From a virus, in the IMG/VR virus record IMGVR_UViG_3300036715_002161, positions 32,001 to 96,000 of that record: a stretch of 64,000 bases of DNA; one strand, given 5' to 3'. Positions within the stretch are counted from its first letter, which is position 1. Every line of letters starts with the position of its first letter. Made by a program: the position numbers and the translations under genes. Positions 8,625 through 22,920 of the stretch are shown here, piece after piece. The notes beneath the pieces were generated by a model that was given only the letters and a program-made list of their open reading frames with translations, was not told the DNA's origin and made no database searches.

Positions 8625-8645
8625 CTGGTTATCTCTACGTTAGAC
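8625..8645 (+). repeat. attC-like half site (L'-R')
   Basis: GGTTATCTCTAC-GTTAGAC. Confidence 0.5.
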
Positions 8646-8647
8646 TC

Positions 8648-8923: not shown

Positions 8924-8960
8924 GGTATTTCCTTTGTTGCGCCACACTTCAAGGGCAGTG

Positions 8961-9022
8961 GGCTAACCCTACGTTCGAGCGGACGCTGGTAAAGCGTCAT
9001 GCCCCTCAACTACACGTTATGG
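8961..9022 (+). repeat. integron attC-like site (complete)
   Basis: GGCTAAC-cctacg-TTCGAGCGG-ACGCT..AGCGT..CCCCTCAA-ctacac-GTTATGG. Confidence 0.75.
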
Positions 9023-9262: not shown

Positions 9263-9263
9263 T

Positions 9264-9521: not shown

Positions 9522-9522
9522 G

Positions 9523-9747
9523 TCAGCTTTCCTTTGTTACCGCCGAAAAGAACCTGTCGCCTTTACCTGTAGGCTGTACAGTCATTGGGTCAAATCCCAT
9601 CTTCTCGCCAAGTTTGGCCCAGGCTGCATTTGCGTTTTCCTGAACGCTACGCACCGTGGCACATTGGAGCGCGATCATCGGTACTGGCCTCATTGCGTCA
9701 AACAGCGCAGTAAGATCATCGGCTGTCATTTCATAGTTTGTCCGCAT
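9523..9747 (-). CDS. hypothetical protein
   Basis: AAGGA SD; packed in operon. Confidence 0.6.
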   Translation of the reverse strand: MRTNYEMTADDLTALFDAMRPVPMIALQCATVRSVQENANAAWAKLGEKMGFDPMTVQPTGKGDRFFSAVTKES

Positions 9748-9759
9748 TTCGTTTCCTTT

Positions 9760-10086
9760 TCAAATTGCTCGTGTCTTCAAAACCTCGCCTGCTTCAAGTA
9801 ATGCAGCAGGATCGTATGCTATACCCACGGACCCATCAGCCCTGCGAATGACCAGTCTAGCGAAAAGGTTGGCAATTTTTCTGAGTCGCTCAATCTCGGC
9901 TGCCTCATCTCGCAAAGTGAGAAGGTCTGCAATCGCATTGGAGTACTTGTTAATGGCATTGACGGCATCATTGTGGTGTACCCCAAACATATCACCGTCG
10001 TCAAAGGCGAAGGCTATCTTTGCTAACTTCTCCGCATCTTTCAGTGCGGCTATCGCCCTGTTAATTACTTCGTTCTTTGTGTCCAT
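9760..10086 (-). CDS. hypothetical protein
   Basis: GGAG SD just after an attC-like site. Confidence 0.6.
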   Translation of the reverse strand: MDTKNEVINRAIAALKDAEKLAKIAFAFDDGDMFGVHHNDAVNAINKYSNAIADLLTLRDEAAEIERLRKIANLFARLVIRRADGSVGIAYDPAALLEAGEVLKTRAI

Positions 10087-10096
10087 ATTTTCTCCG

Positions 10097-10150
10097 ATTT
10101 AACCTGGCAGTCTAGCTGACCCTTACAAGTTGCTCACTTTTGCGTTAGGC
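10097..10150 (+). repeat. degenerate attC-like site
   Basis: ATTTAAC...GCTCACTTTGC-GTTAGGC; upstream gene stop lies in R'. Confidence 0.55.
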
Positions 10151-10405
10151 CAACTCAAATACATGGAATATTAGGTAGCCTCCGTGAATCCCATAGGTTC
10201 CCACGTACTCGCCCGGACCGTCATGTATTAGATTGCCTGTGCCGTAGGTGGCAAAGTTGCGGGGCACGATAGGTTCCATCTCATCCACTAAAGCCCACAG
10301 TTGTGGTATGCCGTCTTGTGCTTGCACCTTAAGTAGCTTCGCACCCTTGTGGATGTGTAGGGTTTGCAAGTCAGTAACTGTCAGCGTCCATTTCAAAATT
10401 TTCAT
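10145..10405 (-). CDS. phage hypothetical protein
   Basis: MKILKWTL...PQLWALVD...GTG...YVGT...FHVFE; GGAG SD before ATG at 10405. Confidence 0.65.
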   Translation of the reverse strand: MKILKWTLTVTDLQTLHIHKGAKLLKVQAQDGIPQLWALVDEMEPIVPRNFATYGTGNLIHDGPGEYVGTYGIHGGYLIFHVFELA

Positions 10406-10530
10406 GTTCTCTCCAAGGTTATGCGGGCCATTACTAATATAAATAGAGAGTATCTCTCTACTATTGTTATACCAAAATAAGTGTACTTTGACTAAAAAAA
10501 ATAAAGGACCTGGTAAGGTCACCCTTATTT

Positions 10531-10558
10531 AAAAAACAGCGCTCTGAATTGAGCGCTG
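10531..10558 (-). terminator. intrinsic terminator
   Basis: CAGCGCTC/GAGCGCTG hairpin with A6 on + (T6 on -), after gene 10565..10750. Confidence 0.75.
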
Positions 10559-10564
10559 CTGTTG

Positions 10565-10750
10565 TTACATAGCTCCGACCGTGTGGTCATCAAACACCTC
10601 TGATAGACTGGTCTTCAGATACTGTTCTACCTTGTAACACCCATAGGCCGTGATAGAAAGCCCCAGTATACTCAGATAGGTGTCATAGTTGGACTTAAGG
10701 TGATCCAAGACCTTAGATGTAAAACTTGCTTCTTTGGCAGGTGCATTCAT
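10565..10750 (-). CDS. small membrane protein
   Basis: AAGGAG SD, own promoter and terminator, one hydrophobic stretch. Confidence 0.6.
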   Translation of the reverse strand: MNAPAKEASFTSKVLDHLKSNYDTYLSILGLSITAYGCYKVEQYLKTSLSEVFDDHTVGAM

Positions 10751-10896
10751 TTGTAATACTCCTTATATTATATTTGGACAAACGGTATGTTTTATCCTAC
10801 TATTGTTATACCAAAATAAGTGTACTTTGACTAAAAAAATAAAGGGCCTAGAGTAGTGACCAAGGTTTTACTTGGTAAGGTCTACCACTATTTAAA

Positions 10897-10941
10897 AACC
10901 CTGACCCGCAAAAGCTTCATCCGGTTAACTCTATGTTATGT
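10897..10941 (+). repeat. partial attC-like site, similar to 19360-19422
   Basis: ...gacccgcaaaagcttcatccggttaactctat-GTTATGT; gene stop lies in R'. Confidence 0.55.
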
Positions 10942-11202
10942 GTCACTTGGTACGTTGGTTATTTCAGCATTATAGCGAGTATTCCATCGCTCTATTGCCT
11001 GCTCTTTGTCACGCCCGATCCGTTCGATCATCCGGCTTGGGCCAGGGGCTTCAGCGCACCAATGCCGCACCGAAACGCTGACCGGGTCGCTATACCTCAT
11101 GCCAACCCAGACTCTCCCGTTGTCTTTGAATTCGGTTATACCGCCGGGACAAAACGGGCACGGTAGCAACCGCTTCAAATCTTCATCCTTAGCTTCTATC
11201 AT
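10936..11202 (-). CDS. Lar-like restriction alleviation protein
   Basis: LLPCPFCPGG...AIERWN. Confidence 0.55.
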   Translation of the reverse strand: MIEAKDEDLKRLLPCPFCPGGITEFKDNGRVWVGMRYSDPVSVSVRHWCAEAPGPSRMIERIGRDKEQAIERWNTRYNAEITNVPSDT

Positions 11203-11539
11203 TTCAGCCTCCTATCATCTGTCTGCACCTCTTGCAGTCTCTTGCCACAGTGCATTTTATTATCCGATGGTGTGCCCTCGCTTATGTCAAAAAGGTTTCC
11301 GCATCCGGTAACCCAAAAGCCATTATTGTCTTCAACCCAGTTACACTGTTCACTCATTTCAATTGTTCCTTTGTTAGAAGGCTCTCGCCACAGTATGGGC
11401 ATACACGTGAGTGCCTCTCTGACCGGTTTCCCCTGACGAACCCAAAGCAGTTTCCGCAGGTGCTAACCCAAAAACCTTCTCCGTCGTTGTCTTCGACCCA
11501 TGTATATGTTTTGTCTTCATGCAGTAGTGTATCCATCAT
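11199..11539 (-). CDS. two tandem small Cys-rich paralogous ORFs (11354..11539 and 11199..~11357)
   Basis: Both contain WVEDN..G.FWV..CGN.F. Confidence 0.55.
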
Positions 11540-11583
11540 TTCTCCTTTTCAAAGTGCCTCACTTCAAAGGTAGGCGGTTAACC

Positions 11584-11838
11584 TTAGCCACCTATGCGCC
11601 GGTACTCCATGCATACAGTATCTGTGACCGTCTGCATGGTTGCTATCTTCCCTATATACATTGGCTGTATATGTGTGCGATACACAGGATTCACGCATTC
11701 CCAGTCGCCTTTCTTAAGTTCAAATGTTGGCTGATTGATTTCTTTCCATAAGCCAACACTAACAACAGCAAAGATGCCTGTTAAGATAACTACTATAATC
11801 CATTCCATACGATTCATATTTTCTCCTCTGTTTGCCAT
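11584..11838 (-). CDS. small membrane-anchored hypothetical protein
   Basis: N-terminal hydrophobic helix. Confidence 0.55.
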   Translation of the reverse strand: MANRGENMNRMEWIIVVILTGIFAVVSVGLWKEINQPTFELKKGDWECVNPVYRTHIQPMYIGKIATMQTVTDTVCMEYRRIGG

Positions 11839-12395
11839 GGCGCTCGGCCTTCACACATTTTGATGAACATCGATTTCTGAGCATCTTCCTCAGAAGCTCC
11901 AGTAGCAGCCCTAGCAGCAAACGCAGCAGCCCCCGCAGCAGCCTTAGCAGCCCTAGCAGCAAACGCAGCAGCAAACGCAGCAGTCCCTTCAGTAGTCCAC
12001 GCAGCAGCATTCGCAGCAGTCCACGCAGCAGCCAATTCAGAATCCGTAGCCTCTCCATTGGCATAGCGCTCAGCTACGTCTGGCGCGGCTATGCTGCGTG
12101 GATCAGTCATCAAGTGTTGCACCCTCCTAGCACACCAAACAGCAAATAGGCGGGAGTCCCTTTCTGTACCTGGAATACATAGGAGAGCCCACAGGGCATC
12201 ACCCAGGCAATTACTAGAGACTATGGAAGCCAACGGTAGAGGCCCCCTATGTTCGTAGCTGATGTAGTATTCTCGGGTGGAATCCAGGCTGGTGAACGGG
12301 AGTCCCTGAAGGCTTCTAACTACCTTGTTATATCCATTAAAGCAGGCTCTTTTTTTACTTAGGGAGGAAAGGGTTATTGTTAGCGGGTAGTTCAT
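11814..12395 (-). CDS. phage protein of RLFAVWCARRVQHL family (Imm5-like), Ala-rich tail
   Basis: Paralog of 8003..8605. Confidence 0.6.
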   Translation of the reverse strand: MNYPLTITLSSLSKKRACFNGYNKVVRSLQGLPFTSLDSTREYYISYEHRGPLPLASIVSSNCLGDALWALLCIPGTERDSRLFAVWCARRVQHLMTDPRSIAAPDVAERYANGEATDSELAAAWTAANAAAWTTEGTAAFAAAFAARAAKAAAGAAAFAARAATGASEEDAQKSMFIKMCEGRAPWQTEEKI

Positions 12396-12461
12396 AGTGG
12401 TGTTCCTTGAATGTTATCTGGCAGCATCTTGGCGCGTCTTCTGTACCGGGCAATTAACTTA

Positions 12462-12959
12462 TTACTTGGGCGTAGTGTAGAGCGGGAGACAAAAACTCTC
12501 ATTCCAACCATCAGTCGTCTTTGCAAAAGAGTGGTAATGCCAATCTCCTGCATCGTCCACTAGGAATCGAGAATAGCCATAAGGCTTACTCTGTACTTTG
12601 TAGGCGGCAATGCGCTCTTCAAGCACCGCCGCGTAGCCGTCCATGCAACGGGCTTGGTTGCGCAACCGTGACTGTTCGGCTTCCGACAGATCGGCAAACT
12701 GAATCGTATGAAAGAAGGTAGATAACTTTATCAGCTTCTTGTCGAGTTCGGCCTTCTCAGTTAAAACGCGTTTATGGACGTAGGTTTTGAATGCGTCTTC
12801 TGGCCGATGATTGATCTCTTCCATTTGTGCTATTAGTGCTTCTCTGAGTACAATGATGGCTGGACGGCATTTCTTTTCCCATATTCTGTAGTAACTGCCG
12901 CCCAGTATAGATATTTCTTCTAGCGCCTCAAGCGCCAGTTCCATTGCTTTCTTGCTCAT
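12462..12959 (-). CDS. chimeric phage protein (MSKKAM module + coiled-coil crAss001_48-like module)
   Basis: RVLTEKAELDKKLIKL..F...EQSRL..Q...M..Y..VLEERIAA. Confidence 0.55.
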   Translation of the reverse strand: MSKKAMELALEALEEISILGGSYYRIWEKKCRPAIIVLREALIAQMEEINHRPEDAFKTYVHKRVLTEKAELDKKLIKLSTFFHTIQFADLSEAEQSRLRNQARCMDGYAAVLEERIAAYKVQSKPYGYSRFLVDDAGDWHYHSFAKTTDGWNESFCLPLYTTPK

Positions 12960-12960
12960 A

Positions 12961-13518
12961 TCAATCTCCATAAGGTAGTCCATCTGTAAGCGCATTGCCA
13001 GCGTTTCCTTGCTGCTCCGGGTTGTTCGGGTTAGGCGACACACCATTAGTATTGAGCACATTTATAGGTATCCCAATGCAGGCATTAACGCAGGCCGCAA
13101 TCCGCTTAGCGTCGGACTCAGAAATTGCGTAGCCGATTTTCTCTCCCGGTGGGCAGACATACCAGCCATCTATATCCTCACCATATCCCCATATCGTGCC
13201 GCCTAACCCTACATTCGAGAGCGACTCCCCAAAAGCGTAGCTCGCCATCGCGGCGCGCAACATTTCAACTTCGGCATTCGAGTCGGACTCACCCTGCTGC
13301 TTGATTGCTTCAACAGTCGAAGCGTGACAACCCATGCGTTCGCAGCCACCTACAAACCCTTCTAATGAGCAGCCATCTTCAAACTCTGGGCCATTATCTT
13401 GTTGAGTGATCGCTTCCTTAAGTGCGGCGATGGCAGCATCACTTTTAGGAATCGCCCGCGTCTGCTCACGGTGATATTCCAGCGCCTCAAGTGCCTGTTC
13501 CATTGCTTTCTTGCTCAT
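12961..13518 (-). CDS. chimeric hypothetical protein reading through an attC-like site
   Basis: MSKKAM module...SLSNVGLG (attC arm at 13201)...AKRIAACVNAC. Confidence 0.55.
   Translation of the reverse strand: MSKKAMEQALEALEYHREQTRAIPKSDAAIAALKEAITQQDNGPEFEDGCSLEGFVGGCERMGCHASTVEAIKQQGESDSNAEVEMLRAAMASYAFGESLSNVGLGGTIWGYGEDIDGWYVCPPGEKIGYAISESDAKRIAACVNACIGIPINVLNTNGVSPNPNNPEQQGNAGNALTDGLPYGD
13201..13282 (+). repeat. attC-like site embedded in an ORF
   Basis: GCCTAAC-cctaca-TTCGAGAGCGAC, nearly identical to left arm at 17876; right arm degenerate. Confidence 0.6.
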
Positions 13519-13519
13519 T

Positions 13520-13780
13520 TCAATCTCCATAGGGTAGTCCATCCGTAAGTGCGTTGCCAGCGTTAGCCACCTCATTCTCATAATCTGGCGGGTCCACGAA
13601 ATAAAAATTTCTCGGCAAAGGTGCAAGGCCATCAAGTTTTGCAGCAAGCATCCAGAGAAGTTTTTCCCGAACTACAACGCCATCCACTTCAGTAACAAAG
13701 TGGTCGCCCTCTTGCCACACAAATACAGGAAACCTTCCACAGTACGTTAGGTGCAGCGTTATTGCTTCGTTTTTGTTCAT
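13520..13780 (-). CDS. hypothetical protein
   Basis: Ends ANAGNALTDGLPYGD like 12961..13518; reads through GTTAGCC at 13562. Confidence 0.55.
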   Translation of the reverse strand: MNKNEAITLHLTYCGRFPVFVWQEGDHFVTEVDGVVVREKLLWMLAAKLDGLAPLPRNFYFVDPPDYENEVANAGNALTDGLPYGD

Positions 13781-13882
13781 GTTTTACTCCGTTGTTAGCC
13801 GTGGTCGAACTATTCAATCGCCGCCATAGCGAATTTCTTACGAATCGCATCAATACAATCACATGGGGTTGTATCTGGCATC

Positions 13883-14182
13883 TTATCCAACTCTATCACC
13901 TAAGTAGAGTGGGCGGCAAAGAGAGACATTCCAACCCTCAGTTGTCATTGCAATAGAATGTAAACGCCGATAACCTAGATCGTCTAACATGTATCTAGCA
14001 TAGCCGAACGGCTCATCCAGCTGCTTGATCGCTTCTTTGAGTACATCTGTGGCTGTGCATCCATAGAATAGAGCTTCTTGCAGGACCGACATTCCAGCAT
14101 TTGATCCTGAGTGCTTATGTGCTATAGTTGCGTCCCATTTTTCTAAGGCATCAAGCGCCAGTTCCATTGCTTTCTTGCTCAT
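13883..14182 (-). CDS. hypothetical protein (MSKKAM module)
   Basis: Shares N- and C-terminal modules with 12462..12959. Confidence 0.55.
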   Translation of the reverse strand: MSKKAMELALDALEKWDATIAHKHSGSNAGMSVLQEALFYGCTATDVLKEAIKQLDEPFGYARYMLDDLGYRRLHSIAMTTEGWNVSLCRPLYLGDRVG

Positions 14183-14382
14183 TTCAATCTCCCTGGGGTA
14201 GTATCAATGGTTAGCGCCAACTCTTGCAAGTCTGCCATTACTTCTTTATTCATGGCTATACACCAGGCAGCGAATCTGTAGCGAGTCCAGCGCATAGGTG
14301 CATCGTCGTCAATAATCTGGCACAAAGCCCATGCAATGCGGTCTTTTGTACTTGCGGTTTCTTTGTCGTATGGTATGTACAT
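14179..14382 (-). CDS. hypothetical protein
   Basis: Coupled ORF. Confidence 0.5.
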   Translation of the reverse strand: MYIPYDKETASTKDRIAWALCQIIDDDAPMRWTRYRFAAWCIAMNKEVMADLQELALTIDTTPGRLK

Positions 14383-14407
14383 ATCAATCCCCTTGGTTAT
14401 GGGTTAC

Positions 14408-15100
14408 TTACAGGGTTTCTTTAAAGTGCTTCATTGTAACTGGGCAGACGGCAGTCGCCAGTTCCAGTAAAGCCTCAGCGTACACCCGGATTTCGTACTG
14501 GGCATGTGCATGAAGTCGAAGACGCAAGAAGTGCATGAGGTTGTGTAGGTCGACCGAGGCAAACATATGGCTGTAGGTACCCGTAGTGAGTACTGACCTG
14601 GCTAGCTCTCTTGGACAGCCTTCCCTGATGAGGCTCTGGTATACCTCAAAGCATGAGTTGTTGGCAGCATCGATAGTCAGCTGGAATTTGCTGGCTAATG
14701 GATGTACTTCCTCAGTCCTCATTTGTTTATTGTCCTTGCTTTGCGTGGTTATTTGAGCCAGCTCCGGTACGTAGTACTCTTCTGGTAGCTCTGCGTACCT
14801 AGCACTAACTTCATTGTAGCTCCAGGTGCGGTGGCGGTGCCACTGTCTCAATACGAAGATGGGGGCCTTCACCTCAAAGGTGAACTGCACCGACTCAAAG
14901 GGGCTTGTGTGTTTGTTATTCAGCAGGTACTTGATGAGCTTCTCATCCTTACCCGAATCCTCTCCTGTGCGCCACTCCGCTGCATAGCTTACGCGAGCTG
15001 CCCGCACTATGGATAGATCACTGCCCATACTATCTACTAGCCTGACTAACCCACGGTCCAATACTTTGAATTCCATTTTAATCTCCTGTAGTTCGTTCAC
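14408..15100 (-). CDS. thyX: FAD-dependent thymidylate synthase
   Basis: AARVSY, HTSPFE, RQWHRHRTWSYNEVSARY ThyX motif, ELARSVL, LRLHAHAQYEIR. Confidence 0.95.
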   Translation of the reverse strand: MNELQEIKMEFKVLDRGLVRLVDSMGSDLSIVRAARVSYAAEWRTGEDSGKDEKLIKYLLNNKHTSPFESVQFTFEVKAPIFVLRQWHRHRTWSYNEVSARYAELPEEYYVPELAQITTQSKDNKQMRTEEVHPLASKFQLTIDAANNSCFEVYQSLIREGCPRELARSVLTTGTYSHMFASVDLHNLMHFLRLRLHAHAQYEIRVYAEALLELATAVCPVTMKHFKETL

Positions 15101-15333
15101 GTTGGGGCTGTCTCTGATTGGGGAATATCAAGGAATCTCACATGCTCTAAAGGTACATTGCTTATAGTTCCATCTGGCCACTCAACAATTGCAGTTGTGT
15201 AGTTACCCGCACAAGTCGCGAACTCTTCGTAGTTCACGCCGAATTGATGAAACATCGCTTCGCCCTTTTCCTCCAGTCTCCATACACCGCTGGGGAACTG
15301 CTTTTTAAGCTCACTTACCATTACTTTACGCAT
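15097..15333 (-). CDS. phage hypothetical protein
   Basis: FHQFGVNYEEF...GNYTTAIVEWPDG motif. Confidence 0.6.
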   Translation of the reverse strand: MRKVMVSELKKQFPSGVWRLEEKGEAMFHQFGVNYEEFATCAGNYTTAIVEWPDGTISNVPLEHVRFLDIPQSETAPT

Positions 15334-15370
15334 TTCATTTCCTTTCTTTCATCTTGGTGCATATCACGGG

Positions 15371-15598
15371 TTAGGGGTAGGCGGCTAACCTTACTTTGGG
15401 GCGTAGCGGGCACCATTTTGGTATCGCCTGTTTATTATCGTTCCATTTGCGCAGAGCTATACGCTTGTTGTGATGTGCTTTGCATGTCCACTCATCTATT
15501 GACTCGAATACATCCGCTTTGTGGAAGCGTTTGCTCTCATGATTAGGGCACCACCCGCAGTCCGCCACTGTCCTTATAAACTGTACTGTTTCAGTCAT
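15371..15598 (-). CDS. small Cys-rich hypothetical protein
   Basis: CGWCP...C...IPKWCPL. Confidence 0.55.
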   Translation of the reverse strand: MTETVQFIRTVADCGWCPNHESKRFHKADVFESIDEWTCKAHHNKRIALRKWNDNKQAIPKWCPLRPKVRLAAYP

Positions 15599-15599
15599 T

Positions 15600-15854
15600 T
15601 CAATCCCCCTCCATGGTTGTGAAGAAAGTTTGGAAATACTCGGCCCGCTCAGTCATATTGCTCATTAGATAAAAGTATATGCAGCCAATATCACAATATT
15701 CAGGTTCAGGATCATCAGGGAACTCATCGGCCCAGTTAGCCACGGCTATCTCTGTGCGCCACTGAAAAGCCTGCTCCTTAGTCTTGAACACCCGCACCTC
15801 TGTGCTATCTACTGTTTTGTATAATGCTACTACGCTTTGCTGTTCTTCACTCAT
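15600..15854 (-). CDS. hypothetical protein
   Basis: Paralog of 9264..9521. Confidence 0.6.
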   Translation of the reverse strand: MSEEQQSVVALYKTVDSTEVRVFKTKEQAFQWRTEIAVANWADEFPDDPEPEYCDIGCIYFYLMSNMTERAEYFQTFFTTMEGD

Positions 15855-15881
15855 GTCAACTTACCTTTGAACGCTGTGATT

Positions 15882-16073
15882 CTATTCATGCTCGGCCCTG
15901 GCCTCAAGTACCCTGTAGTCCTTACTGTACTGATCGTTTAATTCCCCCCACAGTGGGTCATCTGCTGTGAGTTTGGTAGGCTTATGCGCCCAAATCTCAT
16001 TTGTTATCGCTGCACCCACTATACCTCCCATGACCATTGAGACCGAAGCCAAAAGCAAATCGTGGTTAATCAT
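15882..16073 (-). CDS. small membrane hypothetical protein
   Basis: Hydrophobic N-terminus, coupled ORF. Confidence 0.45.
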   Translation of the reverse strand: MINHDLLLASVSMVMGGIVGAAITNEIWAHKPTKLTADDPLWGELNDQYSKDYRVLEARAEHE

Positions 16074-16293
16074 TTTCTACTCCGTAACTTGGTGTAAAAC
16101 AAGTTGAACAAACGCAGCACACGCAACATTCAATATCTGGCCGATCATTATCCTCAAAGCTTTTAATGTCTTGCTCAGTATATCCTGCATCTTTCCGGTT
16201 TTTTGCACTCCAGTCACCACTCCCTCCACCCCAATCAGAATCAAGGCGAAAGTGTCCAATTCTTGTGCTTTTACAGTTAGGGCAAATCTGCAT
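16066..16293 (-). CDS. Cys-rich zinc-ribbon-like protein
   Basis: MQICPNCKS...CCVCCVC; paralog of N-terminus of 19623..20048. Confidence 0.55.
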   Translation of the reverse strand: MQICPNCKSTRIGHFRLDSDWGGGSGDWSAKNRKDAGYTEQDIKSFEDNDRPDIECCVCCVCSTCFTPSYGVEND

Positions 16294-16540
16294 AACTCTC
16301 TCCTATTAAGCTAGATGGACTGAAGTATTTAATAAGCGAAAACATGGCATCTTTGTCTTGCGACCATTTGCACTTCACAATAACCTGGGTTGTCGTGTTC
16401 TCGCCTTCCTTGGGTCGCAGCACCTTTAACGCTTTTGCCCAGCCATACCTTGGATGGTCTTTGTGCCTGTAGCTTTTGTCAATCACTATGTCTTTTGCTC
16501 TCATCATTTTCTCCGTCCTGTAGCTCAATACTTCAAACAT
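16277..16540 (-). CDS. hypothetical protein
   Basis: ORF track, packed in operon. Confidence 0.5.
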   Translation of the reverse strand: MFEVLSYRTEKMMRAKDIVIDKSYRHKDHPRYGWAKALKVLRPKEGENTTTQVIVKCKWSQDKDAMFSLIKYFSPSSLIGESYADLP

Positions 16541-16976
16541 CGCTTTCCTCCACTAAGCCCTGAGGTGTCGGCAGCTTAGTGGTGTCCACTCCGAAGCAAC
16601 TTTGCATGAAGCGTGTAGTCGCTGCGTTGGCCTCGTCGGGCAGTATGCCTTCGTACAGCATATTCATCGCAATCTCGCAGTGCCATCCCCACGCATATTT
16701 GGGGTCATCTCGCATTTCACTCTTCAAGATTTCGAGCGCCGCCTCAATGCGACTTGGTGTCTTGGTGTCGCCATCTAGGCTGCACCGCGCCGGCCATTGA
16801 GAGAACGGTTCGCAGGTGCTGTCAACCCCGCGCAGTTCCATAAAAGCTTTGATTTCTTCAGCCATCGGGGCAGAGTTGTTGGCCGAAGCAGTCAAAGGCT
16901 TGTTACGCATTGTAAGATAGTCGCCGAAGTCTAACAGCACTCCCGCAACAATGTGATCCAGTCGTTCAAGGCTCAT
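16533..16976 (-). CDS. hypothetical protein
   Basis: AAGGA SD in shared leader; DPKYAWGWHCEIAM motif. Confidence 0.6.
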   Translation of the reverse strand: MSLERLDHIVAGVLLDFGDYLTMRNKPLTASANNSAPMAEEIKAFMELRGVDSTCEPFSQWPARCSLDGDTKTPSRIEAALEILKSEMRDDPKYAWGWHCEIAMNMLYEGILPDEANAATTRFMQSCFGVDTTKLPTPQGLVEESDV

Positions 16977-17024
16977 AGTTTAATTTCCTTTTAAAGTTCC
17001 GCACTTTGAAGGTAGGCGGCTAAC

Positions 17025-17324
17025 CTACCAAATAGCAACCAACTTTCGTCCGTTTGCTTTGTCGCCATCTATCAGTTCAATCCTAACGCCAGGAACAAAA
17101 GTAATTGCTTCGGCTACATTATCACCTTGCTGCGTAGTTACTTGTACAACACACCCAACACCATCAATCTGCATTGCCTTTGTTGACTTCATCCACCCTT
17201 GCGCCGTGGAGGATGCTTTGCAAATAAGCTGGAATGTATCACCATTGCCAAACACTTTCAAGTCGTTAATATTCGCAGTTGCTCCTTTCACCTCTGTGAT
17301 GTCCATCAATTTAGGTTCTGTCAT
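17025..17324 (-). CDS. phage hypothetical protein
   Basis: GNGDTFQLICKASS..QGWMKSTKAM...GCVVQVTTQ; GAGGA SD before MTEPK. Confidence 0.65.
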   Translation of the reverse strand: MTEPKLMDITEVKGATANINDLKVFGNGDTFQLICKASSTAQGWMKSTKAMQIDGVGCVVQVTTQQGDNVAEAITFVPGVRIELIDGDKANGRKLVAIW

Positions 17325-17417
17325 CTTACTTTCCTCTTTCAAAATGCCGCACTTCAAAGGTAGGCGGTTAACCTCTTGCTCCGTATCAAATACGTTCAAG
17401 CGGATTATGTAGCACTG

Positions 17418-17600
17418 TCATTTCGGCTTAGTGGCGTCTCCGATGTTCTTCATCACACCTTTGAGTGCAGTAGCGGTATGAGGCTCATCCTTATCGGTGA
17501 GTGCTCCTCCCATTGTTATCACGTCAGCGACAATCGCAACAGGTGTTTCGACAACAACACCAATAACTGCCTTGGTCAAATTCTCAAGTAATCCAAACAT
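17418..17600 (-). CDS. small hypothetical protein
   Basis: Paralog of 18241..18435 (MFG.L.NLTKA). Confidence 0.6.
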   Translation of the reverse strand: MFGLLENLTKAVIGVVVETPVAIVADVITMGGALTDKDEPHTATALKGVMKNIGDATKPK

Positions 17601-17674
17601 AGTCTATTCATCCTTTTAAAGTGCCTCACTTCAAGGGTAGGAGGCTAAACCATTTTCTCGGTATCTGGTGCATA

Positions 17675-17935
17675 TCACGGGTTAGGCCACTCTGCCACGG
17701 TGGTAACGTCCTTCGATGCTCCGCACCGTATGCACAAATAGCCTGTGGTAGCCCACTTCAACCCGTCGCTGTCTGGTTGCAGGTCTAACATTCCACATGT
17801 GACCGACCATCGGTGCAAACCAAGCCAACAAAGCATCGGCGTGTACCCAACTTTTGCCGCCAACGATTGCTTCTGGCCTAACCCTACATTCGAGAGGGAC
17901 GCTCCTTCAGCAGTTTCATTATTGTTTGAGTTCAT
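17675..17935 (-). CDS. hypothetical protein starting inside an attC loop
   Basis: N-terminus ...SLSNVGLG encoded by attC arm; LCWLGLHRW...CIRCG. Confidence 0.55.
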   Translation of the reverse strand: MNSNNNETAEGASLSNVGLGQKQSLAAKVGYTPMLCWLGLHRWSVTCGMLDLQPDSDGLKWATTGYLCIRCGASKDVTTVAEWPNP

Positions 17936-17964
17936 CAGTCGCGCCCCTCAATTCAGCGTTAGCC
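17876..17964 (+). repeat. integron attC-like site (complete)
   Basis: GCCTAAC-cctaca-TTCGAGAGGGACGC...GCGCCCCTCAA-ttcagc-GTTAGCC. Confidence 0.85.
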
Positions 17965-18203
17965 ACCTCAAACTGAGATCCGTGGTAAACCTCTTTATTC
18001 GTGTAGTCTGAGATTTGCCACATTCCAGACCCTTCGTTAAACCACCACGCTAGATCTGGATAATTATCGTCCGGCTTGCTTAACTGGAATAGCGTCCCAC
18101 CTACTTTCCTTAGGTGCGTAGCTGCGGCACGTCTAGTGGCTAACACTTTGGTCAAGCGGGACTGGCCGTCAGCGGCTTCGGTTGTTTCTTGTGTTTCACT
18201 CAT
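17919..18203 (-). CDS. hypothetical protein running from one attC loop to the next
   Basis: SD/ATG in loop of 18138-18251 site; stop in loop of 17876-17964 site. Confidence 0.6.
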   Translation of the reverse strand: MSETQETTEAADGQSRLTKVLATRRAAATHLRKVGGTLFQLSKPDDNYPDLAWWFNEGSGMWQISDYTNKEVYHGSQFEVANAELRGATDELKQ

Positions 18204-18251
18204 TGCTTATCTCCTGTTGTTGCGGCCAGCCCCTTACCTTCTACGTTATGT
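18138..18251 (+). repeat. integron attC-like site (complete)
   Basis: GGCTAAC-actttg-GTCAAGCGGGACTGGCCG...CGGCCAGCCCCTTAC-cttctac-GTTATGT. Confidence 0.85.
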
Positions 18252-18435
18252 CACTATCTATGGCCTTGTTAACGCTCTTTCCAGCCGCATTAAGTAAGTC
18301 GCCAGTGCGTCCGAATGGGTGGTCATCCTCATGGTCAGCACTTGCGAATAATGTCAATATATCAACTACGAGTGCGACTGGTGTTAATGCCACGGCAACT
18401 GCTGCCTTTGTCAAATTTCTAAGTATTCCAAACAT
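18241..18435 (-). CDS. small hypothetical protein
   Basis: Paralog of 17418..17600. Confidence 0.6.
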   Translation of the reverse strand: MFGILRNLTKAAVAVALTPVALVVDILTLFASADHEDDHPFGRTGDLLNAAGKSVNKAIDSDIT

Positions 18436-18454
18436 TTTTCTCTTTCAAAGTTAT

Positions 18455-18472
18455 ACCTAACCCGCGTTAGGT
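18455..18472 (+). repeat. collapsed attC-like site (only R''/R' boxes left)
   Basis: ACCTAAC-ccgc-GTTAGGT. Confidence 0.5.
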
Positions 18473-18921
18473 GCTTCCAAATGCTGAAGCTCCAGATAAA
18501 AACGGTGATACTCGGCAATCCGCTCGACGTCCTTCGGGCGCACGCCCTTTAGTCGGCGAATGTCGCTGTTGTGGCGCAGGTCTGCCATCTTCACCATCAC
18601 TGCGTCAGGATTTGCTTTTACTCGTGCCTTGTAGTCGTCGTATGCCTCGCCATCAACCTTGGTGAGCGCCACGATGCCGGCAATTACGCGCTCGGAAAAA
18701 CCGTTGTAGCGCAGCGTTCCGACGCCATCCTCTACACGCTTAAATGTGTCTTCCACAAGGTCGTGCCCAAGGGCAATACACATCAGTTCCTCGTCGTCGG
18801 TCTTCAAGTAATGCATCACCTTCAGCGGGTGCAGGATGTACGGGTTTCCACCCTTGTCAAACTGGCCGTCATGTCGGTTTGTCGCCAGCACAAGCATTCT
18901 GGAAAGCTGCTCGCCTTTCAT
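18457..18921 (-). CDS. HD-domain protein, RelA/SpoT hydrolase-like (stand-alone)
   Basis: HDGQFDKGGNPYILHPLKVM...GHDLVEDT...VKMADLRHN. Confidence 0.8.
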   Translation of the reverse strand: MKGEQLSRMLVLATNRHDGQFDKGGNPYILHPLKVMHYLKTDDEELMCIALGHDLVEDTFKRVEDGVGTLRYNGFSERVIAGIVALTKVDGEAYDDYKARVKANPDAVMVKMADLRHNSDIRRLKGVRPKDVERIAEYHRFYLELQHLEAPNAG

Positions 18922-18953
18922 TTGTCGCCACCTTTCTCTGTAGTTGCCGCCGC

Positions 18954-19005
18954 ACCTAACAAGTCGTTGCAGGCGGCGGCCAGCCCTTTACCCCCTACGT
19001 TAGCG
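18954..19005 (+). repeat. hybrid attC-like site
   Basis: ACCTAAC-aagtcgttgcaggcg joined to cggccagccctttacc...GTTAGCG (right arm like 18138 site). Confidence 0.65.
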
Positions 19006-19353
19006 TCCATCATCTTCACGCATGATGTCGCCGTTGAGTTCGATCCGTTTACGGTCAAGCTGGCGGACTGTTTCGATCACATCGCTTGCCCAAAAAACCT
19101 CGGCCTGGGTGTACTTAGTGCCATATTCTCTGTTTATAATCTGAGCCTTGTACTCGGCAGCAAACCAAGACCGCCCAGCAAAGGTATATGCCACGGCAGC
19201 CAACCCGGCGGTAATCGCCAAAAGGAATCCGAGCACCCCAGCCATAGTGCCTATGCCGTCATAGGTTTCTCTGCTGTACCACATCAGTGCTACTGCAATA
19301 ACGCTAGCTGCAATAATTGCTACAAGTATTAAAATCATCTTTATCTCCTTCAA
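19000..19353 (-). CDS. membrane protein
   Basis: Two hydrophobic helices; stop lies in R' box. Confidence 0.6.
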   Translation of the reverse strand: MKEIKMILILVAIIAASVIAVALMWYSRETYDGIGTMAGVLGFLLAITAGLAAVAYTFAGRSWFAAEYKAQIINREYGTKYTQAEVFWASDVIETVRQLDRKRIELNGDIMREDDGR

Positions 19354-19359
19354 AGTTAT

Positions 19360-19422
19360 GCCTAACCCTACGTTAAACCCGGACTCCGCAAAAGCGCGTA
19401 TCCGATTAACTCTACGTTATGC
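19360..19422 (+). repeat. integron attC-like site (complete)
   Basis: GCCTAAC-cctacg-TTAAACCCGGAC...TCCGATTAAC-tctac-GTTATGC. Confidence 0.7.
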
Positions 19423-19626
19423 GTCACTTGGTGTATAATCTGCGTTAGGCGCCTTCCAGTTTTCATAATTAGCTCTTATGCGGTTGCATCGGTGACAATC
19501 GCACATAGCATCGTATGACTCATAGTTGCTAGTTGCTTTCAGGTAGGATATCCACTCGTGAACGGCAGCTAACCCGGCGTTCGAGCGCACGGGCAACGGC
19601 GCGGCTTCTTTTTCAGCTTCGTTCAT
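19417..19626 (-). CDS. hypothetical protein starting inside an attC loop
   Basis: N-terminus ...VRSNAGLAA from attC arm; stop lies in next R' box. Confidence 0.55.
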   Translation of the reverse strand: MNEAEKEAAPLPVRSNAGLAAVHEWISYLKATSNYESYDAMCDCHRCNRIRANYENWKAPNADYTPSDA

Positions 19627-19671
19627 GGTTTCTCCTCGCGCCGTTCCCCGGCGCTCAACTTTGCGTTAGGC
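19567..19671 (+). repeat. integron attC-like site (complete, long stem)
   Basis: AGCTAAC-ccggcg-TTCGAGCGCACGGGCAACGGCGCG...CGCGCCGTTCCCCGGCGCTCAA-ctttgc-GTTAGGC. Confidence 0.85.
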
Positions 19672-20048
19672 ATCACCTCCCACCAAGTCTGTGGAGCGTA
19701 TCTTTCAAGCGGGGAATCGAAGTCCCCCAAGTACAATTTGCCATCGTCGCCCTGCAAAACAGTGTGGTATTGGTCACGGTCATGTGAATTAAACAATGTG
19801 TCCCCTGCCTTGATTTCAGTTCCGTTCTTGTCTTGCATTGCGTCACTTGGTGTAAAACAAGTTGAACATACGCAGCACACGCAACATTCAATATCTGGCC
19901 GCTCGTTATCCTCAAAGCTTTTAACGTCTTGCTCGGTATACCCTGCGTCTTTCCCGTTTTCTGCACCCCAATAACCGCTCCCTCCATAATTATGATTGAT
20001 GCTAAGGCGTCCAATTCTTGTGCTTTTACAGTTAGGGCAAATTTGCAT
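19623..20048 (-). CDS. fusion of Cys-rich module and YopX-like DKNGTEIKAGD module
   Basis: N-half paralogous to 16066..16293; C-terminus PNAKLSAG from attC arm. Confidence 0.55.
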   Translation of the reverse strand: MQICPNCKSTRIGRLSINHNYGGSGYWGAENGKDAGYTEQDVKSFEDNERPDIECCVCCVCSTCFTPSDAMQDKNGTEIKAGDTLFNSHDRDQYHTVLQGDDGKLYLGDFDSPLERYAPQTWWEVMPNAKLSAGERREEKP

Positions 20049-21139: not shown

Positions 21140-21151
21140 GGTCTATGTTTA
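21123..21151 (-). promoter_or_regulatory. early promoter driving the small-ORF array: TAAACA-N17-(TGG)TATAAG
   Basis: Overlaps RT stop codon; matches the other early promoters. Confidence 0.65.
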
Positions 21152-22120
21152 AAACTCTGGTAACTCTACTATTTCTGGGTTAAGTGCGTCCTTCAACTTA
21201 TCAAATAAGGGCTCTGCTCCCTGCGGATTCAATTGGTTAAACCACCCCAACCTTCCCGTTAGGTAGTTTTTAAACTCTCCAGAGGTCATACTATTCTTGA
21301 CCGCCTCAGGTTCAAGTCCATAAAGACTTACGTTGTGAACCATGGCCCGAAGCTTTTTACGCTCATGTCTGATCAGATTAGTTTTCTGATTTACTACTAC
21401 CCCACATACATAGTGTCGATTCTTTTTGGTCATAACCTTGGTTTTGGCATTATTAATCTTAAAGCCAAAAGTGGTCAAGGTCTGTTTAATAAAAGCCAAG
21501 ACCTCGCCTATTTCCATTCTCCCAGTGGAGGAAATAGTAATGTCATCGGCATAGATCGTCAAGGTAAGATCTCTTTCTCTACAGTACGATTCTAAGATGG
21601 GGCCAAAAGTCTTAGCTATTACCAGGTTACTAATCTTAGGGCTTGTAATGGCTCCTTGTGGGACAAAGAATTTATAAGTACAAAGTTCAGAAATCAGTCT
21701 TGCTGGTTTAGGACCAAATCCATCATCAGTAAAGATTTTCATCAAATGGTCTTGATGTATACTGGTAAAGAAGTCATTAAGATCGACGCTTACTACTACG
21801 CTTTTGCCCACATGACTCTGAGCCATCTTAGGTATAGATCTGGCCTTTTCAAAAGCATGAATATATCCAGGTATATCATAAGTACTCAAGACTCTGCTAA
21901 GTAGTCTATATTGAACTAATCTCATTTGCCCAGAAGGATTGTAGATATTCCTAAAGCCTCCAGATCTTTTAGGAATCCGAAAGAAGCTGTAATGTTCTAA
22001 TTTGTTCAGACCAAGCCAAGTCAGCCTCCGAGCATTCCCCACTTCCAATATCTGAGATAATTCCAGGTTTGTCTCTGGTCGCACGAACGGGGGTGGAGGT
22101 AACTGCATTTGATCCGACAT
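21149..22120 (-). CDS. retron-type reverse transcriptase
   Basis: IPKRSGGFRNI, MAQSH (NAxxH-like), VDLNDFFTSI, VPQGAITSPKISN, YADD, VCG (VTG-like); AAGGA SD before ATG 22120. Confidence 0.92.
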   Translation of the reverse strand: MSDQMQLPPPPFVRPETNLELSQILEVGNARRLTWLGLNKLEHYSFFRIPKRSGGFRNIYNPSGQMRLVQYRLLSRVLSTYDIPGYIHAFEKARSIPKMAQSHVGKSVVVSVDLNDFFTSIHQDHLMKIFTDDGFGPKPARLISELCTYKFFVPQGAITSPKISNLVIAKTFGPILESYCRERDLTLTIYADDITISSTGRMEIGEVLAFIKQTLTTFGFKINNAKTKVMTKKNRHYVCGVVVNQKTNLIRHERKKLRAMVHNVSLYGLEPEAVKNSMTSGEFKNYLTGRLGWFNQLNPQGAEPLFDKLKDALNPEIVELPEF

Positions 22121-22377
22121 AAACTTTCCTTTTAAGTAATTGTAATCCAGAGGCTGGGTATAGTTTTTTGTTATAAGATAAAAAACCATTTTTAAGAACA
22201 GAGGGGGTCATATCTAAATGAACAAATAATCTAGACTCTACCCCTATAACTACTCGGAAATAATCCCAGGCCTCATCCTGCTGATTAAAAATGGCGAAAG
22301 TATTCTTTTTGTATACAAGATCTGGGCTTTGACCTTTATATCCTTTCGGATGGATGGCCGTTTCAACCGTCATAAGA

Positions 22378-22920
22378 CTATCCTCTAAGTTTATATATTG
22401 ATATTAAATTCTCTGCCTGGGCACGAGCATCTGACCCGGCATGATGGGCTAACATTGGTCTTGTATGTATCCAACCTCTGGCCAGGTTGGAATCTTTAAA
22501 CTCAGCCAAGACCGTGCGATAGCATCTGTTGTTTCTAAAAGACCAAGGTACAGAGTAATTAATACTAGTGTAGGCATTGGCCAAAATTACATTATCAAAA
22601 TCAGACCCATTACCCCAAACTTTAATCTCTGAGCTGGAGCTATAAGAGAAGAAAAACTCAGAGAAATCGGCCAAGGCATCAGGCAGGCTTACTCCATGCT
22701 TGAATTCCGCCCTAGCGGCATCGGACTGTTCTAACCACCAAAGAACAGTGTCTGCATCCATTGTTCCACCACACTCTACGGAACTAATCAGGCTAACCTT
22801 CCTATAAAAATCCATTCCTATGGTAAAATTCTTCAGGTCTACCTCTATTGCTCCGATTGCAGTGATTGCAGCATTCGGGCCAGTGCCCATTGTTTCTAAG
22901 TCTAGTACTAGGTTTTTCAT
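22378..22920 (-). CDS. DEDDh 3'-5' exonuclease (DUF5051/RNase AS-like)
   Basis: LDLETMG...WGNGSDFDNVIL...RCYRT...HHAGSDA. Confidence 0.85.
   Translation of the reverse strand: MKNLVLDLETMGTGPNAAITAIGAIEVDLKNFTIGMDFYRKVSLISSVECGGTMDADTVLWWLEQSDAARAEFKHGVSLPDALADFSEFFFSYSSSSEIKVWGNGSDFDNVILANAYTSINYSVPWSFRNNRCYRTVLAEFKDSNLARGWIHTRPMLAHHAGSDARAQAENLISIYKLRG

What the first reader, a model, noticed from the sequence alone, without database searches (positions are those of the whole stretch)
17876..19671. attC loops carry the start codon and ribosome-binding site of the next gene; ORFs read through the arms in a fixed frame
Seen: the loop of 18138-18251 holds AGGAGA (18210-18215) and ATG (18203). 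The loop of 19567-19671 holds AGGAGA (19631-19636) and an ATGA stop/start overlap (19623-19626). The loop of 17876-17964 holds both the upstream stop and the downstream ATG. Downstream proteins cross R'' always as NNG-TTA (Leu): SNVGLG, TKVLA, SNAGLA, and again SNVGLG at 13201. Upstream proteins that do not stop in R' usually cross it as AAC (ANAEL, PNAKL, PNADY, PNAG, ANAG). Inference: the recombination hairpin doubles as a portable translation-initiation/coupling module whose SD stays in an unpaired loop, so shuffled genes remain expressed or form in-frame fusions.
Basis: partly seen in the sequence, partly recalled or inferred. Interest (0 to 1): 0.85.

Follow-up and report, generated by a model that had tools for sequence, protein, structure and literature searches.

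The report
Phage integron cassettes read backwards
A large phage carries genuine integron recombination hairpins (attC sites) whose genes run on the opposite strand to bacterial cassettes, so several genes start inside the hairpin loop; this backwards layout recurs in many viral contigs and extends the integron model.

Summary

The hairpins are true integron-type attC sites. They match a covariance model built from bacterial and viral sites. The same family sits beside integron integrases in bacteria. The 138-kb phage contig has no integrase, so this is a CALIN.

Every gene lies on the attC bottom strand. In 162 viral attCs of this family, 109 have only a bottom-strand gene start behind them and 3 only a top-strand one. 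In bacteria the counts are 1 and 27.

In long attCs the ribosome-binding site and start codon sit in the variable loop. This holds for 3 of 3 in the window. It holds for 16 of 31 in viral contigs, against 1 of 31 on the top strand. Orthologues keep the loop start despite a frame switch.

The "fixed frame" is not a rule: outside the window the counts are 12, 8 and 1. Frame use across R' follows from stop codons in the conserved boxes.

This scan has already noted the inverted layout on other phage DNA. I found it in none of the papers whose text I searched.

The parts
17876..17964 (+). attC site, 89 nt; the top strand is the window + strand. R'' is at 17876-17882 and R' at 17958-17964. Extra bases C and A sit on the L'' arm. 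The loop holds the stop of the 94-aa ORF and the ATG of the 86-aa ORF.
   Evidence: CM R1 60.3 bits, E 3e-13; this site was not in the training set. Folds.
18138..18251 (+). attC site, 114 nt, with three extra bases on the L'' arm. The loop holds the minus-strand SD and the ATG of the 94-aa ORF.
   Evidence: CM R1 22.9 bits as a local match and 45.4 bits as a whole-site match. In the RNA fold the SD and ATG are unpaired.
19567..19671 (+). attC site, 105 nt. The loop holds the SD and the ATGA stop/start overlap.
   Evidence: CM R1 24 bits local and 37 bits whole-site. 92% identical to L043:1-99. Fold z-score -5.3.
19360..19422 (+). Short attC, 63 nt. The TAA inside its R' is the stop of the 69-aa ORF. 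The SD and ATG of the next gene lie outside the site, at 19338-19350.
   Evidence: CM R1 61.9 bits; this site was in the training set. Start candidates.
8961..9022 (+). Short attC, 62 nt, at the far end of the array.
   Evidence: CM R1 52.7 bits; in the training set.
18954..19005 (+). Degenerate attC. The TAA in its R' is the stop of the 112-aa ORF.
   Evidence: CM R1 11.6 bits, E 2.1, a weak match. Its right half resembles that of 18138-18251.
18455..18472 (.). 18-nt palindrome made of R'' plus R' only, that is, an attC with its arms and loop deleted. The 154-aa HD-domain ORF crosses it as PNAG and stops there.
13201..13275 (+). Decayed attC lying wholly inside a long minus-strand ORF. It is a candidate in-frame fusion of two cassettes.
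   Evidence: CM R1 16.7 bits, E 0.09. ORF translation. Peptide SNVGLG.
17919..18203 (-). 94-aa ORF. It starts in the loop of 18138-18251, reads through L''/R'' (...GQSRLTKVLA) and ends in the loop of 17876-17964.
   Evidence: Seven homologues are conserved from just after R'' up to the AAC codon of R'; their leaders and tails vary.
17675..17935 (-). 86-aa ORF. It starts in the loop of 17876-17964, 17 nt before the end of the upstream ORF.
   Evidence: Two orthologues keep the loop start, one of them in another frame across R''.
19417..19626 (-). 69-aa ORF. It starts in the loop of 19567-19671 and stops at the TAA inside the R' of 19360-19422.
19623..20048 (-). 141-aa ORF. It crosses R' and the L' arm of 19567-19671 (PNAKLSAGERREEKP) and stops at the ATGA overlap. 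Its first ~70 aa are paralogous to the 75-aa ORF at 16066-16293, so it may be a fusion.
   Evidence: (repeats D8, D15).
18210..18215 (-). AGGAGA Shine-Dalgarno motif, 6 nt upstream of the ATG at 18203; unpaired in the loop.
19631..19636 (-). AGGAGA Shine-Dalgarno motif, 4 nt upstream of the ATG at 19626; in the loop, apart from a predicted weak 2-bp pairing.
17944..17949 (-). GAGGGG, the only SD-like motif before the ATG at 17935. It is part of the conserved L' box and is paired in the hairpin.
   Evidence: The same arrangement occurs in L001, L045 and L033 and in L098.

Best explanation
Window 8.9-19.7 kb is an array of genuine integron-type attC recombination sites in a large tailed phage. 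The contig has no integrase, so the array is a CALIN. All attC top strands lie on the window + strand and all genes lie on the - strand. Each cassette gene is therefore encoded on the attC bottom strand, the reverse of bacterial cassettes.

Consequences for each gene:
- A gene's own attC sits at its 5' end in the mRNA.
- In short attCs the ribosome-binding site and ATG follow R'' by 10-40 nt.
- In long attCs they have moved into the variable terminal loop. The protein then begins with a 20-25-aa leader encoded by the loop, L'', spacer and R''.
- At its 3' end the gene runs to the cassette boundary. It either stops at the TAA inside the next R' box, or reads across AA|C in the only open frame (AAC) and stops in the neighbour's spacer, arm or loop. 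That stop sometimes overlaps the neighbour's start (ATGA), a geometry that allows translational coupling.

Shown here: attC identity, gene inversion, loop starts, cassette boundaries in relatives, and retention of the leader in orthologues.

Inferred, not shown: that these starts are used, that upstream ribosomes open the hairpin, and that a host or phage IntI still moves the cassettes of this particular phage.
For: attC identity:
- Forty-three short sites (17 bacterial, 24 viral, 2 window) align with R''/R' boxes, 5-6-nt unpaired spacers and extra bases at columns 16, 20 and 24.
- 92.0% of cells are paired against 82.5% in shuffles. 103 cells show changes on both sides against 45.8 expected. 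0 of 500 shuffles reach this.
- The extra-base positions match the G16/T20/T24 of Nivina 2016 (passages read).
- The model hits five window sites, all on the + strand.
- The minus strand folds more stably as DNA in 4 of 5 sites.
- The same 19-mer occurs in 25 bacterial genome stretches.
- L023 has a TIGR02249 integron integrase (489 bits, cut-off 265) beside such attCs.
- IntI homologues lie in 8 of 25 bacterial loci. Full-length copies also lie in viral loci L033 and L098.

Inversion:
- Of 162 non-edge viral attCs, an SD plus start with an ORF >=50 aa follows on the bottom strand only in 109, on the top strand only in 3, on both in 7 and on neither in 43.
- Of 69 bacterial attCs the counts are 1, 27, 3 and 38.

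Loop starts:
- 3 of 3 long window sites have them. In viral contigs 16 of 31 long sites have them, against 1 of 31 on the top strand.

Cassette boundaries:
- A 73-aa gene with its attC occurs in 5 contigs with different neighbours. Homology starts at AA|C and ends at the next ...TAA|C.
- Homologues of the 94-aa ORF are conserved from R'' up to the AAC codon and then diverge.

Start use:
- Orthologues of the 86-aa ORF keep a loop ATG. One crosses R'' in another frame and regains the body's frame through compensating indels of +1 and -4 nt.
Against: - There are no expression data. No RNA run is listed for this DNA.
- No integrase lies in the contig, which is estimated 78% complete.
- Four further window sites are weak or decayed matches, so the array may be partly fossil.
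- The SD of 17876-17964 lies inside the stem.
- 12 of 31 long viral attCs have no loop start.
- 43 of 162 viral sites have no SD-start on either strand by my simple test.
- Stop and start overlap or abut in only 8 of 23 loop-start sites.
- The one cultured phage CALIN that I could test, TJE1, has the canonical orientation. Inversion is therefore not universal in phages.
- Gene calls are my own ORF/SD heuristics, not a trained gene finder.
- Viral status of the comparison contigs rests on the IMG/VR label.
Confidence: 0.75

Rival explanations
1. Fossil array with overprinting. A CALIN landed once in this phage lineage in the wrong orientation and is no longer recombined. Tightly packed phage genes then grew into the dead hairpins. 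On this view the loop starts, leaders and borrowed stops are by-products with no selected role in recombination or translation.
For: - No integrase lies in the contig.
- Several window sites are decayed or deleted: 18455-18472, 18954-19005, 13201-13275 and 10097-10150.
- Frame use is explained by stop content alone.
Against: - Five window sites keep full attC structure.
- Identical cassette units occur in different contexts, with breakpoints exactly at AA|C.
- Protein families diverge exactly at the R' AAC codon.
- Full-length IntI lies beside inverted arrays in viral loci L033 and L098.
- An inverted cassette with a loop start sits first in a bacterial integron.
- The loop-start enrichment is strand-specific.
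Confidence: 0.15
2. The true starts lie downstream of the hairpins. The loop ATGs are fortuitous, and gene callers merely extend ORFs to them.
For: - The leaders are poorly conserved in sequence.
- In L043 the same loop ATG gives only a 22-aa ORF.
Against: - The three window ORFs have no alternative start with an SD. The next ATGs would leave 34, 29 and 53 aa.
- 16 of 31 bottom-strand sites have loop starts against 1 of 31 on the top strand.
- The reading frame is restored by compensating indels in an orthologue.
- All 7 homologues of the 94-aa ORF and all 3 of the 86-aa ORF keep an upstream Met at a similar distance.
Confidence: 0.07
3. The hairpins are not integron sites. They are a phage-specific regulatory repeat, either a terminator or a promoter-stem-loop cassette of the PeSL kind known from T4-type phages (recalled, not read here).
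For: - They are intergenic hairpin repeats among small accessory genes.
- Rfam has no match to them. As far as I recall, Rfam holds no attC model, so this is weak.
Against: - Covariation and box structure match attC.
- The same family bounds cassettes beside IntI in bacteria.
- No T-run terminator calls fall at the sites, and promoter-like sites are not enriched: 20 found against 22.6 expected.
Confidence: 0.03

Closest known systems
CALINs and integrons in phage genomes (Qi et al. 2023, PMC9892861; abstract, section 3.4 and searched passages read)
   Same: Clusters of attC sites without an integrase occur in virulent phages. Five of six phage attCs tested there recombined with attI1 under IntI1.
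   Different: The text I read does not mention genes on the bottom strand or starts inside attC. It calls the TJE1 and PH101 arrays typical. TJE1 is canonical by my model. Its figures and supplements were not visible to me.
Canonical integron cassettes (class 1 and sedentary chromosomal integrons; Nivina et al. 2016, PMC5027507, passages read)
   Same: R'/R'' boxes, unpaired central spacer, extrahelical bases at positions 16/20/24, a variable terminal structure, and cassette boundaries at AA|C of the bottom strand.
   Different: There the gene is on the top strand, its attC is 3' of it, and expression comes from Pc. Here the gene is on the bottom strand, the attC is its 5' leader, and no Pc or intI is present.
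Reverse-oriented cassettes with their own promoters, such as toxin-antitoxin cassettes in chromosomal integrons (recalled; Qi et al. mention a TA cassette with its own promoter)
   Same: An ORF antisense to the array direction inside a normal cassette.
   Different: Those are a minority within canonical arrays. Here whole arrays are inverted, and the translation start is built into the attC loop.
attC effects on cassette translation and fused cassettes (Fonseca and Vicente 2022 review, PMC8876359, passages read; Carvalho et al. 2024, PMC11511950, abstract read)
   Same: attC hairpins in polycistronic mRNA, translational coupling between cassettes, and fusions after attC loss are known ideas.
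   Different: All of these concern the top-strand hairpin 3' of the gene. None describes an SD and ATG inside the attC loop on the bottom strand.
Integrons with intI in reverse orientation (Spirochaetota; one passage in Ghaly et al. 2022 preprint; the rest recalled)
   Same: intI and the cassette genes end up co-oriented, as they do in viral loci L098 and L033.
   Different: There the integrase gene is the flipped part. Here intI keeps the canonical position relative to the attC top strands and the cassette genes are the flipped part.

Membership tests
Integron attC recombination site | Inverse core boxes: on the bottom strand, 5'-RYYYAAC (R') ... GTTRRRY-3' (R'') | tested here: met
   The AAC and GTT triplets are invariant in alignment A1. 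All five window sites have them. The outer box positions deviate in some sites, for example GTTATGC.
Integron attC recombination site | Unpaired central spacer between the R and L boxes | tested here: met
   5-nt and 5-6-nt spacers that are not complementary (columns 8-12 and 59-64 of A1).
Integron attC recombination site | Extrahelical bases on the L'' arm that mark the bottom strand | tested here: met
   Unpaired columns 16, 20 and 24 on the top strand (C, C/A, A), which read G, G/T, T on the bottom strand. These positions are as given in passages of PMC5027507.
Integron attC recombination site | Conserved structure with variable sequence, and a variable terminal loop | tested here: met
   10 of 22 pairs show changes on both sides, and 0 of 500 shuffles reach the observed score. 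Window sites are 62-114 nt long.
Integron attC recombination site | Cassette boundaries at the AA|C of R' | tested here: met
   Met in relatives: five contigs; window against L098; protein tails diverge after the AAC codon. Not shown for movement within this phage.
Integron attC recombination site | Recombined by an integron integrase | not testable with these tools
   Only association is shown: IntI (TIGR02249) lies beside attCs of this family in L023 and in 7 other bacterial loci, and in viral loci L033 and L098.
Complete integron | intI gene with attI and Pc next to the array | tested here: not met
   No PF00589 match in the 138,036-bp record, while the 14 of 14 control genomes matched. No tblastn match to the L023 IntI. 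The contig is estimated 78% complete.
CALIN (cluster of attC sites lacking an integrase) | Two or more co-oriented attCs and no integrase nearby | tested here: met
   Seven model matches, all on the + strand, at 8961-19671.
Canonical cassette organisation | ORF on the attC top strand with the attC 3' of the ORF | tested here: not met
   All five window attCs have only bottom-strand starts behind them. Viral sites give 109 bottom-only against 3 top-only; bacterial sites give 1 against 27.
Intrinsic terminator or PeSL-type promoter stem-loop | A hairpin followed by a T-run, or an early promoter attached to the stem-loop | tested here: not met
   No terminator-like call lies at the end of any attC on the minus (gene) strand; one weak + strand call (18164-18177) falls inside the loop of 18138-18251. 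Promoter-like sites number 20 against 22.6 expected. The definition of PeSL is recalled.

The most novel reading that the evidence does not exclude
Phages keep their own branch of the integron cassette pool, marked by orientation.
- Its cassettes encode their gene on the attC bottom strand.
- They carry their ribosome-binding site, start codon and a short leader inside their own attC.
- They often end exactly at the TAA of the boundary box.

Such cassettes would be antisense to Pc, and so silent, when parked in a bacterial integron. The first cassette of L023 is an example of one parked there. They would be expressed when inserted into a phage array, which is transcribed on the bottom strand.

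Host IntI, or the phage-borne IntI seen in L033 and L098, would shuffle them. Because leaders and C-terminal tails are supplied by the attCs, recombination or attC decay could also create new protein fusions.
Probability: 0.35. Interest if true: 0.85.

Novelty: new variant of a known kind. Interest (0 to 1): 0.7.

Why it matters
Integrons are taught as bacterial platforms. A promoterless gene sits on the top strand, is followed by its attC, and is read from Pc.

Here, and in many viral contigs carrying the same attC family, the logic is mirrored:
- The gene is on the recombinogenic bottom strand.
- The attC is its 5' leader.
- In about half of the long sites, the loop that integron studies treat as a free "variable terminal structure" encodes the translation start.

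If these sites are active, four things follow:
- Phages can draw on and feed the integron cassette pool with genes that are unreadable from Pc.
- The recombination site is under joint DNA-structure and coding constraint.
- Annotation tools that assume the canonical orientation will mis-call these cassettes and their starts.
- There is a simple route to new N- and C-terminal fusions.

It also gives an experimental handle on how attC hairpins and translation interact.

Tried and rejected
Analyses that led nowhere or were replaced:
- A strict regex for perfect GCCTAAC...GTTAGGC pairs found nothing useful. Counts of the bare 7-mer are not above chance: 12 found against 8.2 expected.
- Calling the coding strand by longest ORF was too ambiguous (106 of 178 left flanks ambiguous). 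I replaced it with the SD-plus-start test.
- The frame labels printed were swapped for two frames. Corrected counts are AAC 80, TAA 53 and YTA-ACN 6 of 139. The explanation (a TGA at -4..-2 and the TAA in the box) was checked.
- Rfam gave no match in the window.
- blastn and tblastn of the window array against the fetched loci found only attCs and two small proteins in common. No close relative of the whole array is therefore in hand.
- Model R1 found nothing in Pseudoalteromonas phage H101 or Polaribacter phage P12002L. Their attCs are probably of another type, and the answer itself says an empty result shows nothing.

Sequencing runs:
- No RNA holder is listed, so there is no evidence on expression either way.
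- Logan contigs of four DNA runs show joints and loose ends at or next to R boxes. Examples are a joint from 15602 to 19415 in three runs, a joint from 16077 to 19417 in one run, and loose ends at 19364/19418 and 8965/9021.
- These contigs break at repeats, and paralogues cross-map. I treat this only as a hint of strain-level cassette differences, not as evidence.

Literature:
- Searches for a description of inverted phage cassettes or starts inside attC were. None was found in the listed titles and abstracts or in the passages I read.
- Figures and supplementary tables of Qi et al. 2023 could not be seen. They may record gene orientation.

Rows dropped before counts:
- One search listed 210 viral matches (E <= 0.1). 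I used the 186 with E < 0.001, which became 178 after removing identical site-plus-flank duplicates.
- One search listed 87 bacterial matches. I used 80, which became 79 after removing duplicates.
- Sites within 150-250 nt of a locus end were left out.
- L098 sites were added by hand.
Full report
**What the window is.** The window is bases 32001-96000 of a 138,036-bp IMG/VR virus record, estimated 78% complete. It encodes a large terminase (33835-35460), an SNF2 helicase and a reverse transcriptase. Its terminase is closest, at 45% identity, to that of the 181-kb Salmonella phage Arash. From about 5 kb to 23 kb all genes are small and lie on the minus strand.

**Checking the observation.**
- Minus-strand AGGAGA is at 18210-18215 with the ATG at 18203.
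- AGGAGA is at 19631-19636 with the ATGA overlap at 19623-19626.
- Inside 17876-17964 lie both the TAA of the 94-aa ORF (17919-17921) and the ATG of the 86-aa ORF (17935).
- All nine quoted peptides sit on R boxes.

**Are the hairpins attC sites?**
- A 19-nt pattern from the left arm occurs in 25 bacterial genome stretches. Most are beta- and gammaproteobacterial MAGs, and two are Stutzerimonas. It occurs in 2 viral contigs, and a looser pattern occurs in 72.
- Forty-three short sites (17 bacterial, 24 viral, 2 from the window) align into the textbook anatomy: a 7-nt R'' box, a 5-nt unpaired spacer, an L'' arm with unpaired bases at columns 16, 20 and 24, a variable loop, an L' arm, a spacer and an R' box.
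- 92.0% of cells are paired against 82.5% in shuffles. 103 cells show changes on both sides against 45.8 expected. 0 of 500 shuffles reach this, and sliding the partners drops pairing to 33-52%.
- The unpaired positions match the extrahelical bases G16, T/A20 and T24 that mark the bottom strand in Nivina et al. 2016 (passages read).
- A covariance model of this alignment finds seven sites in the whole contig. All are on the + strand and all lie between 8961 and 19671. One of them, 17876-17964, scored 60.3 bits without being in the training set.
- As single-stranded DNA the minus strand folds more stably in 4 of 5 sites.
- The same family bounds cassettes next to a bona fide integron integrase in L023 (TIGR02249, 489 bits against a cut-off of 265). 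IntI homologues lie in 8 of 25 bacterial loci.
- The phage contig has no tyrosine recombinase. It is therefore a CALIN, a kind of element already reported in phages (Qi et al. 2023; abstract and section 3.4 read).

**The key point: the genes are inverted.** The attC top strand is the window + strand, but the genes are on the minus strand. I asked, for each attC, whether an SD plus start with an ORF of at least 50 aa follows the site on the top or on the bottom strand.

| Set | Sites | Bottom only | Top only | Both | Neither |
|---|---|---|---|---|---|
| Bacterial | 69 | 1 | 27 | 3 | 38 |
| Viral | 162 | 109 | 3 | 7 | 43 |
| Window | 5 | 5 | 0 | 0 | 0 |

- The window layout is thus the norm for this attC family in viral contigs and the reverse of the bacterial norm.
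- It is not universal in phages. Tetrasphaera phage TJE1, one of Qi's validated cases, is canonical by the same model.

**These are still real cassettes.**
- A 73-aa gene preceded by its 67-70-nt attC occurs in five viral contigs at 80-92% protein identity, with unrelated neighbours.
- In the alignment, homology begins at the C of the R' AAC and ends at the ...TAA of the next R'. That is the integron crossover point.
- The window's 86-aa cassette recurs in L098 with other neighbours. It is conserved from behind R'' to the next R'.
- The seven homologues of the 94-aa ORF are conserved from just after R'' to the AAC codon of R'. After that their tails differ in sequence and length.

**Starts inside loops.** With genes on the bottom strand, a gene's own attC is its 5' leader.
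- In the two short window sites the SD and ATG follow R'' outside the hairpin.
- In all three long sites they are inside the loop.
- Among 31 long viral sites, 12 have a bottom-strand SD plus start in the loop that continues as an ORF of at least 40 aa. Another 4 give a short leader ORF whose stop abuts the next start.
- On the top strand only 1 of 31 has such a start. Among 22 long bacterial sites the bottom strand has one, in L023.
- The protein bodies behind these leaders are unrelated to each other.
- Two adjacent cassettes of L098 carry nearly the same attC and leader on different bodies.
- An attC 92% identical to 19567-19671 gives in L043 only a 22-aa peptide, coupled by ATGA to the next gene. 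In the window it is fused in frame.
- Orthologues argue that the loop starts are used. All three 86-aa proteins and all seven 94-aa proteins keep a Met 20-29 residues before the conserved body.
- The L098 orthologue crosses R'' in another frame and returns to the body's frame through indels of +1 and -4 nt.

**What is not supported.**
- The frame through R'' is not fixed. In 21 loop-start sites outside the window (20 viral, 1 bacterial) it is NNG-TTR in 12, the GTT codon in 8 and the third frame in 1. The expectation is 9.7, 8.7 and 2.7 if the start fell at random among the frames that are open. The window's 3 of 3, or 4 of 4 with the decayed site, is compatible with chance and shared descent.
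- At R', 139 bottom-strand ORFs of at least 50 aa reach the box. 80 are in the AAC frame, 53 in the TAA frame (51 of which stop in the box) and 6 in the third frame. Spurious top-strand ORFs are spread evenly at 46, 49 and 39 (labels corrected).
- The skew has a simple cause. The box supplies a TAA in one frame. The flank often holds a TGA at -4..-2 in another frame.
- Of 177 ORF ends near viral attCs, 17 lie at that TGA position (-4), 51 at the R' TAA, 35 in the spacer, 7 in the 5' arm, 17 in the loop, 17 in the 3' arm and 12 beyond the site. About half of the genes therefore borrow their stop from the neighbour's attC.
- The SD is unpaired in two window sites. In 17876-17964 the only SD-like motif is the conserved L' box itself, which is paired in the stem. 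There the upstream ORF runs through that arm and ends 17 nt past the ATG.
- Stop and start overlap or abut in 8 of 23 loop-start sites. In 13 the upstream ORF ends 15-58 nt before the start, and 2 have no upstream ORF end nearby.
- The attCs are not called as terminators, and promoter-like sites are not enriched.

**Fusions.**
- The decayed site at 13201-13275 lies wholly inside a long ORF.
- The 141-aa ORF is a 75-aa paralogue joined to a second part at the place where a relative ends at an R' box.
- Both are suggestive only.

**Limits.**
- There are no expression data.
- My gene calls are heuristics.
- The comparison contigs are viral only by their IMG/VR label.
- Supplements and figures of the papers could not be seen.

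**Earlier notes and the literature.**
- Earlier notes of this scan describe the same inverted layout on this genome and on other phage DNA. I reached and tested it independently here.
- In five literature searches and the passages I read, I found no description of it.

Noticed in passing
window 21149-22189 (-), with 22378-22920 (-): A retron-type reverse transcriptase lies directly upstream of the cassette array in the direction of transcription (PADLOC RT_III-A 233 bits; NCBIfam retron St85 191 bits, below its cut-off of 235). A DEDDh-like exonuclease precedes it. No link to the attCs was tested.
   Followed up: partly
L098:4608-5582 (+) and L033:7167-8168 (+): Two viral contigs with inverted arrays encode a full-length integron-integrase homologue, 59-60% identical to the L023 IntI. 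It has the canonical position relative to the attC top strands, so it is co-oriented with the cassette genes. Fragments also occur in L060 and L096.
   Followed up: partly
L023:3892-5324: In a bacterial chromosomal integron (IntI next to pdxJ/acpS/recO-like genes), the cassette nearest intI is inverted. Its SD, ATG and leader lie in the loop of a 123-nt attC and resemble window site 18138-18251. The following cassettes are canonical.
   Followed up: partly
window 8932-8969, 11547-11584, 16989-17026, 17337-17374, 17614-17651: A five-copy repeat (D9). It consists of an R''-like GTTARCC box followed by a small hairpin, an SD and an ATG. Only the first copy is attached to a full attC. The others look like cassette junctions that have lost the rest of the hairpin.
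   Followed up: partly
window 18455-18472: A perfect 18-nt palindrome made of R'' and R' with 4 nt between them, as if the arms and loop of an attC had been deleted.
   Followed up: no
window 19284-19717: In Logan contigs of four metagenomes, summed depth in this bin is 2-9 times that of neighbouring bins. Contigs matching only 19364-19418 diverge on both sides. The same attC therefore occurs in other contexts in those samples.
   Followed up: partly
window 11881-12033 and 8211-8510 / 12001-12300: A minus-strand coding repeat with 9/12-nt periodicity (GCAGC-rich on the + strand), inside one of two 300-nt paralogous segments that are 72% identical.
   Followed up: no
window 5028-7604 and 5413-15088: Several families of paralogous small genes share conserved 5' ends and SD regions (repeats D3, D4, D7, D11). 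They lie upstream of and within the array and are not bounded by detectable attCs.
   Followed up: no
window 18457-18921 (-): One cassette-like gene is an HD-domain protein (Pfam HD 20.1 bits, just under the cut-off). Its DNA matches phage genes annotated as metal-dependent phosphohydrolase or (p)ppGpp hydrolase/synthetase.
   Followed up: partly
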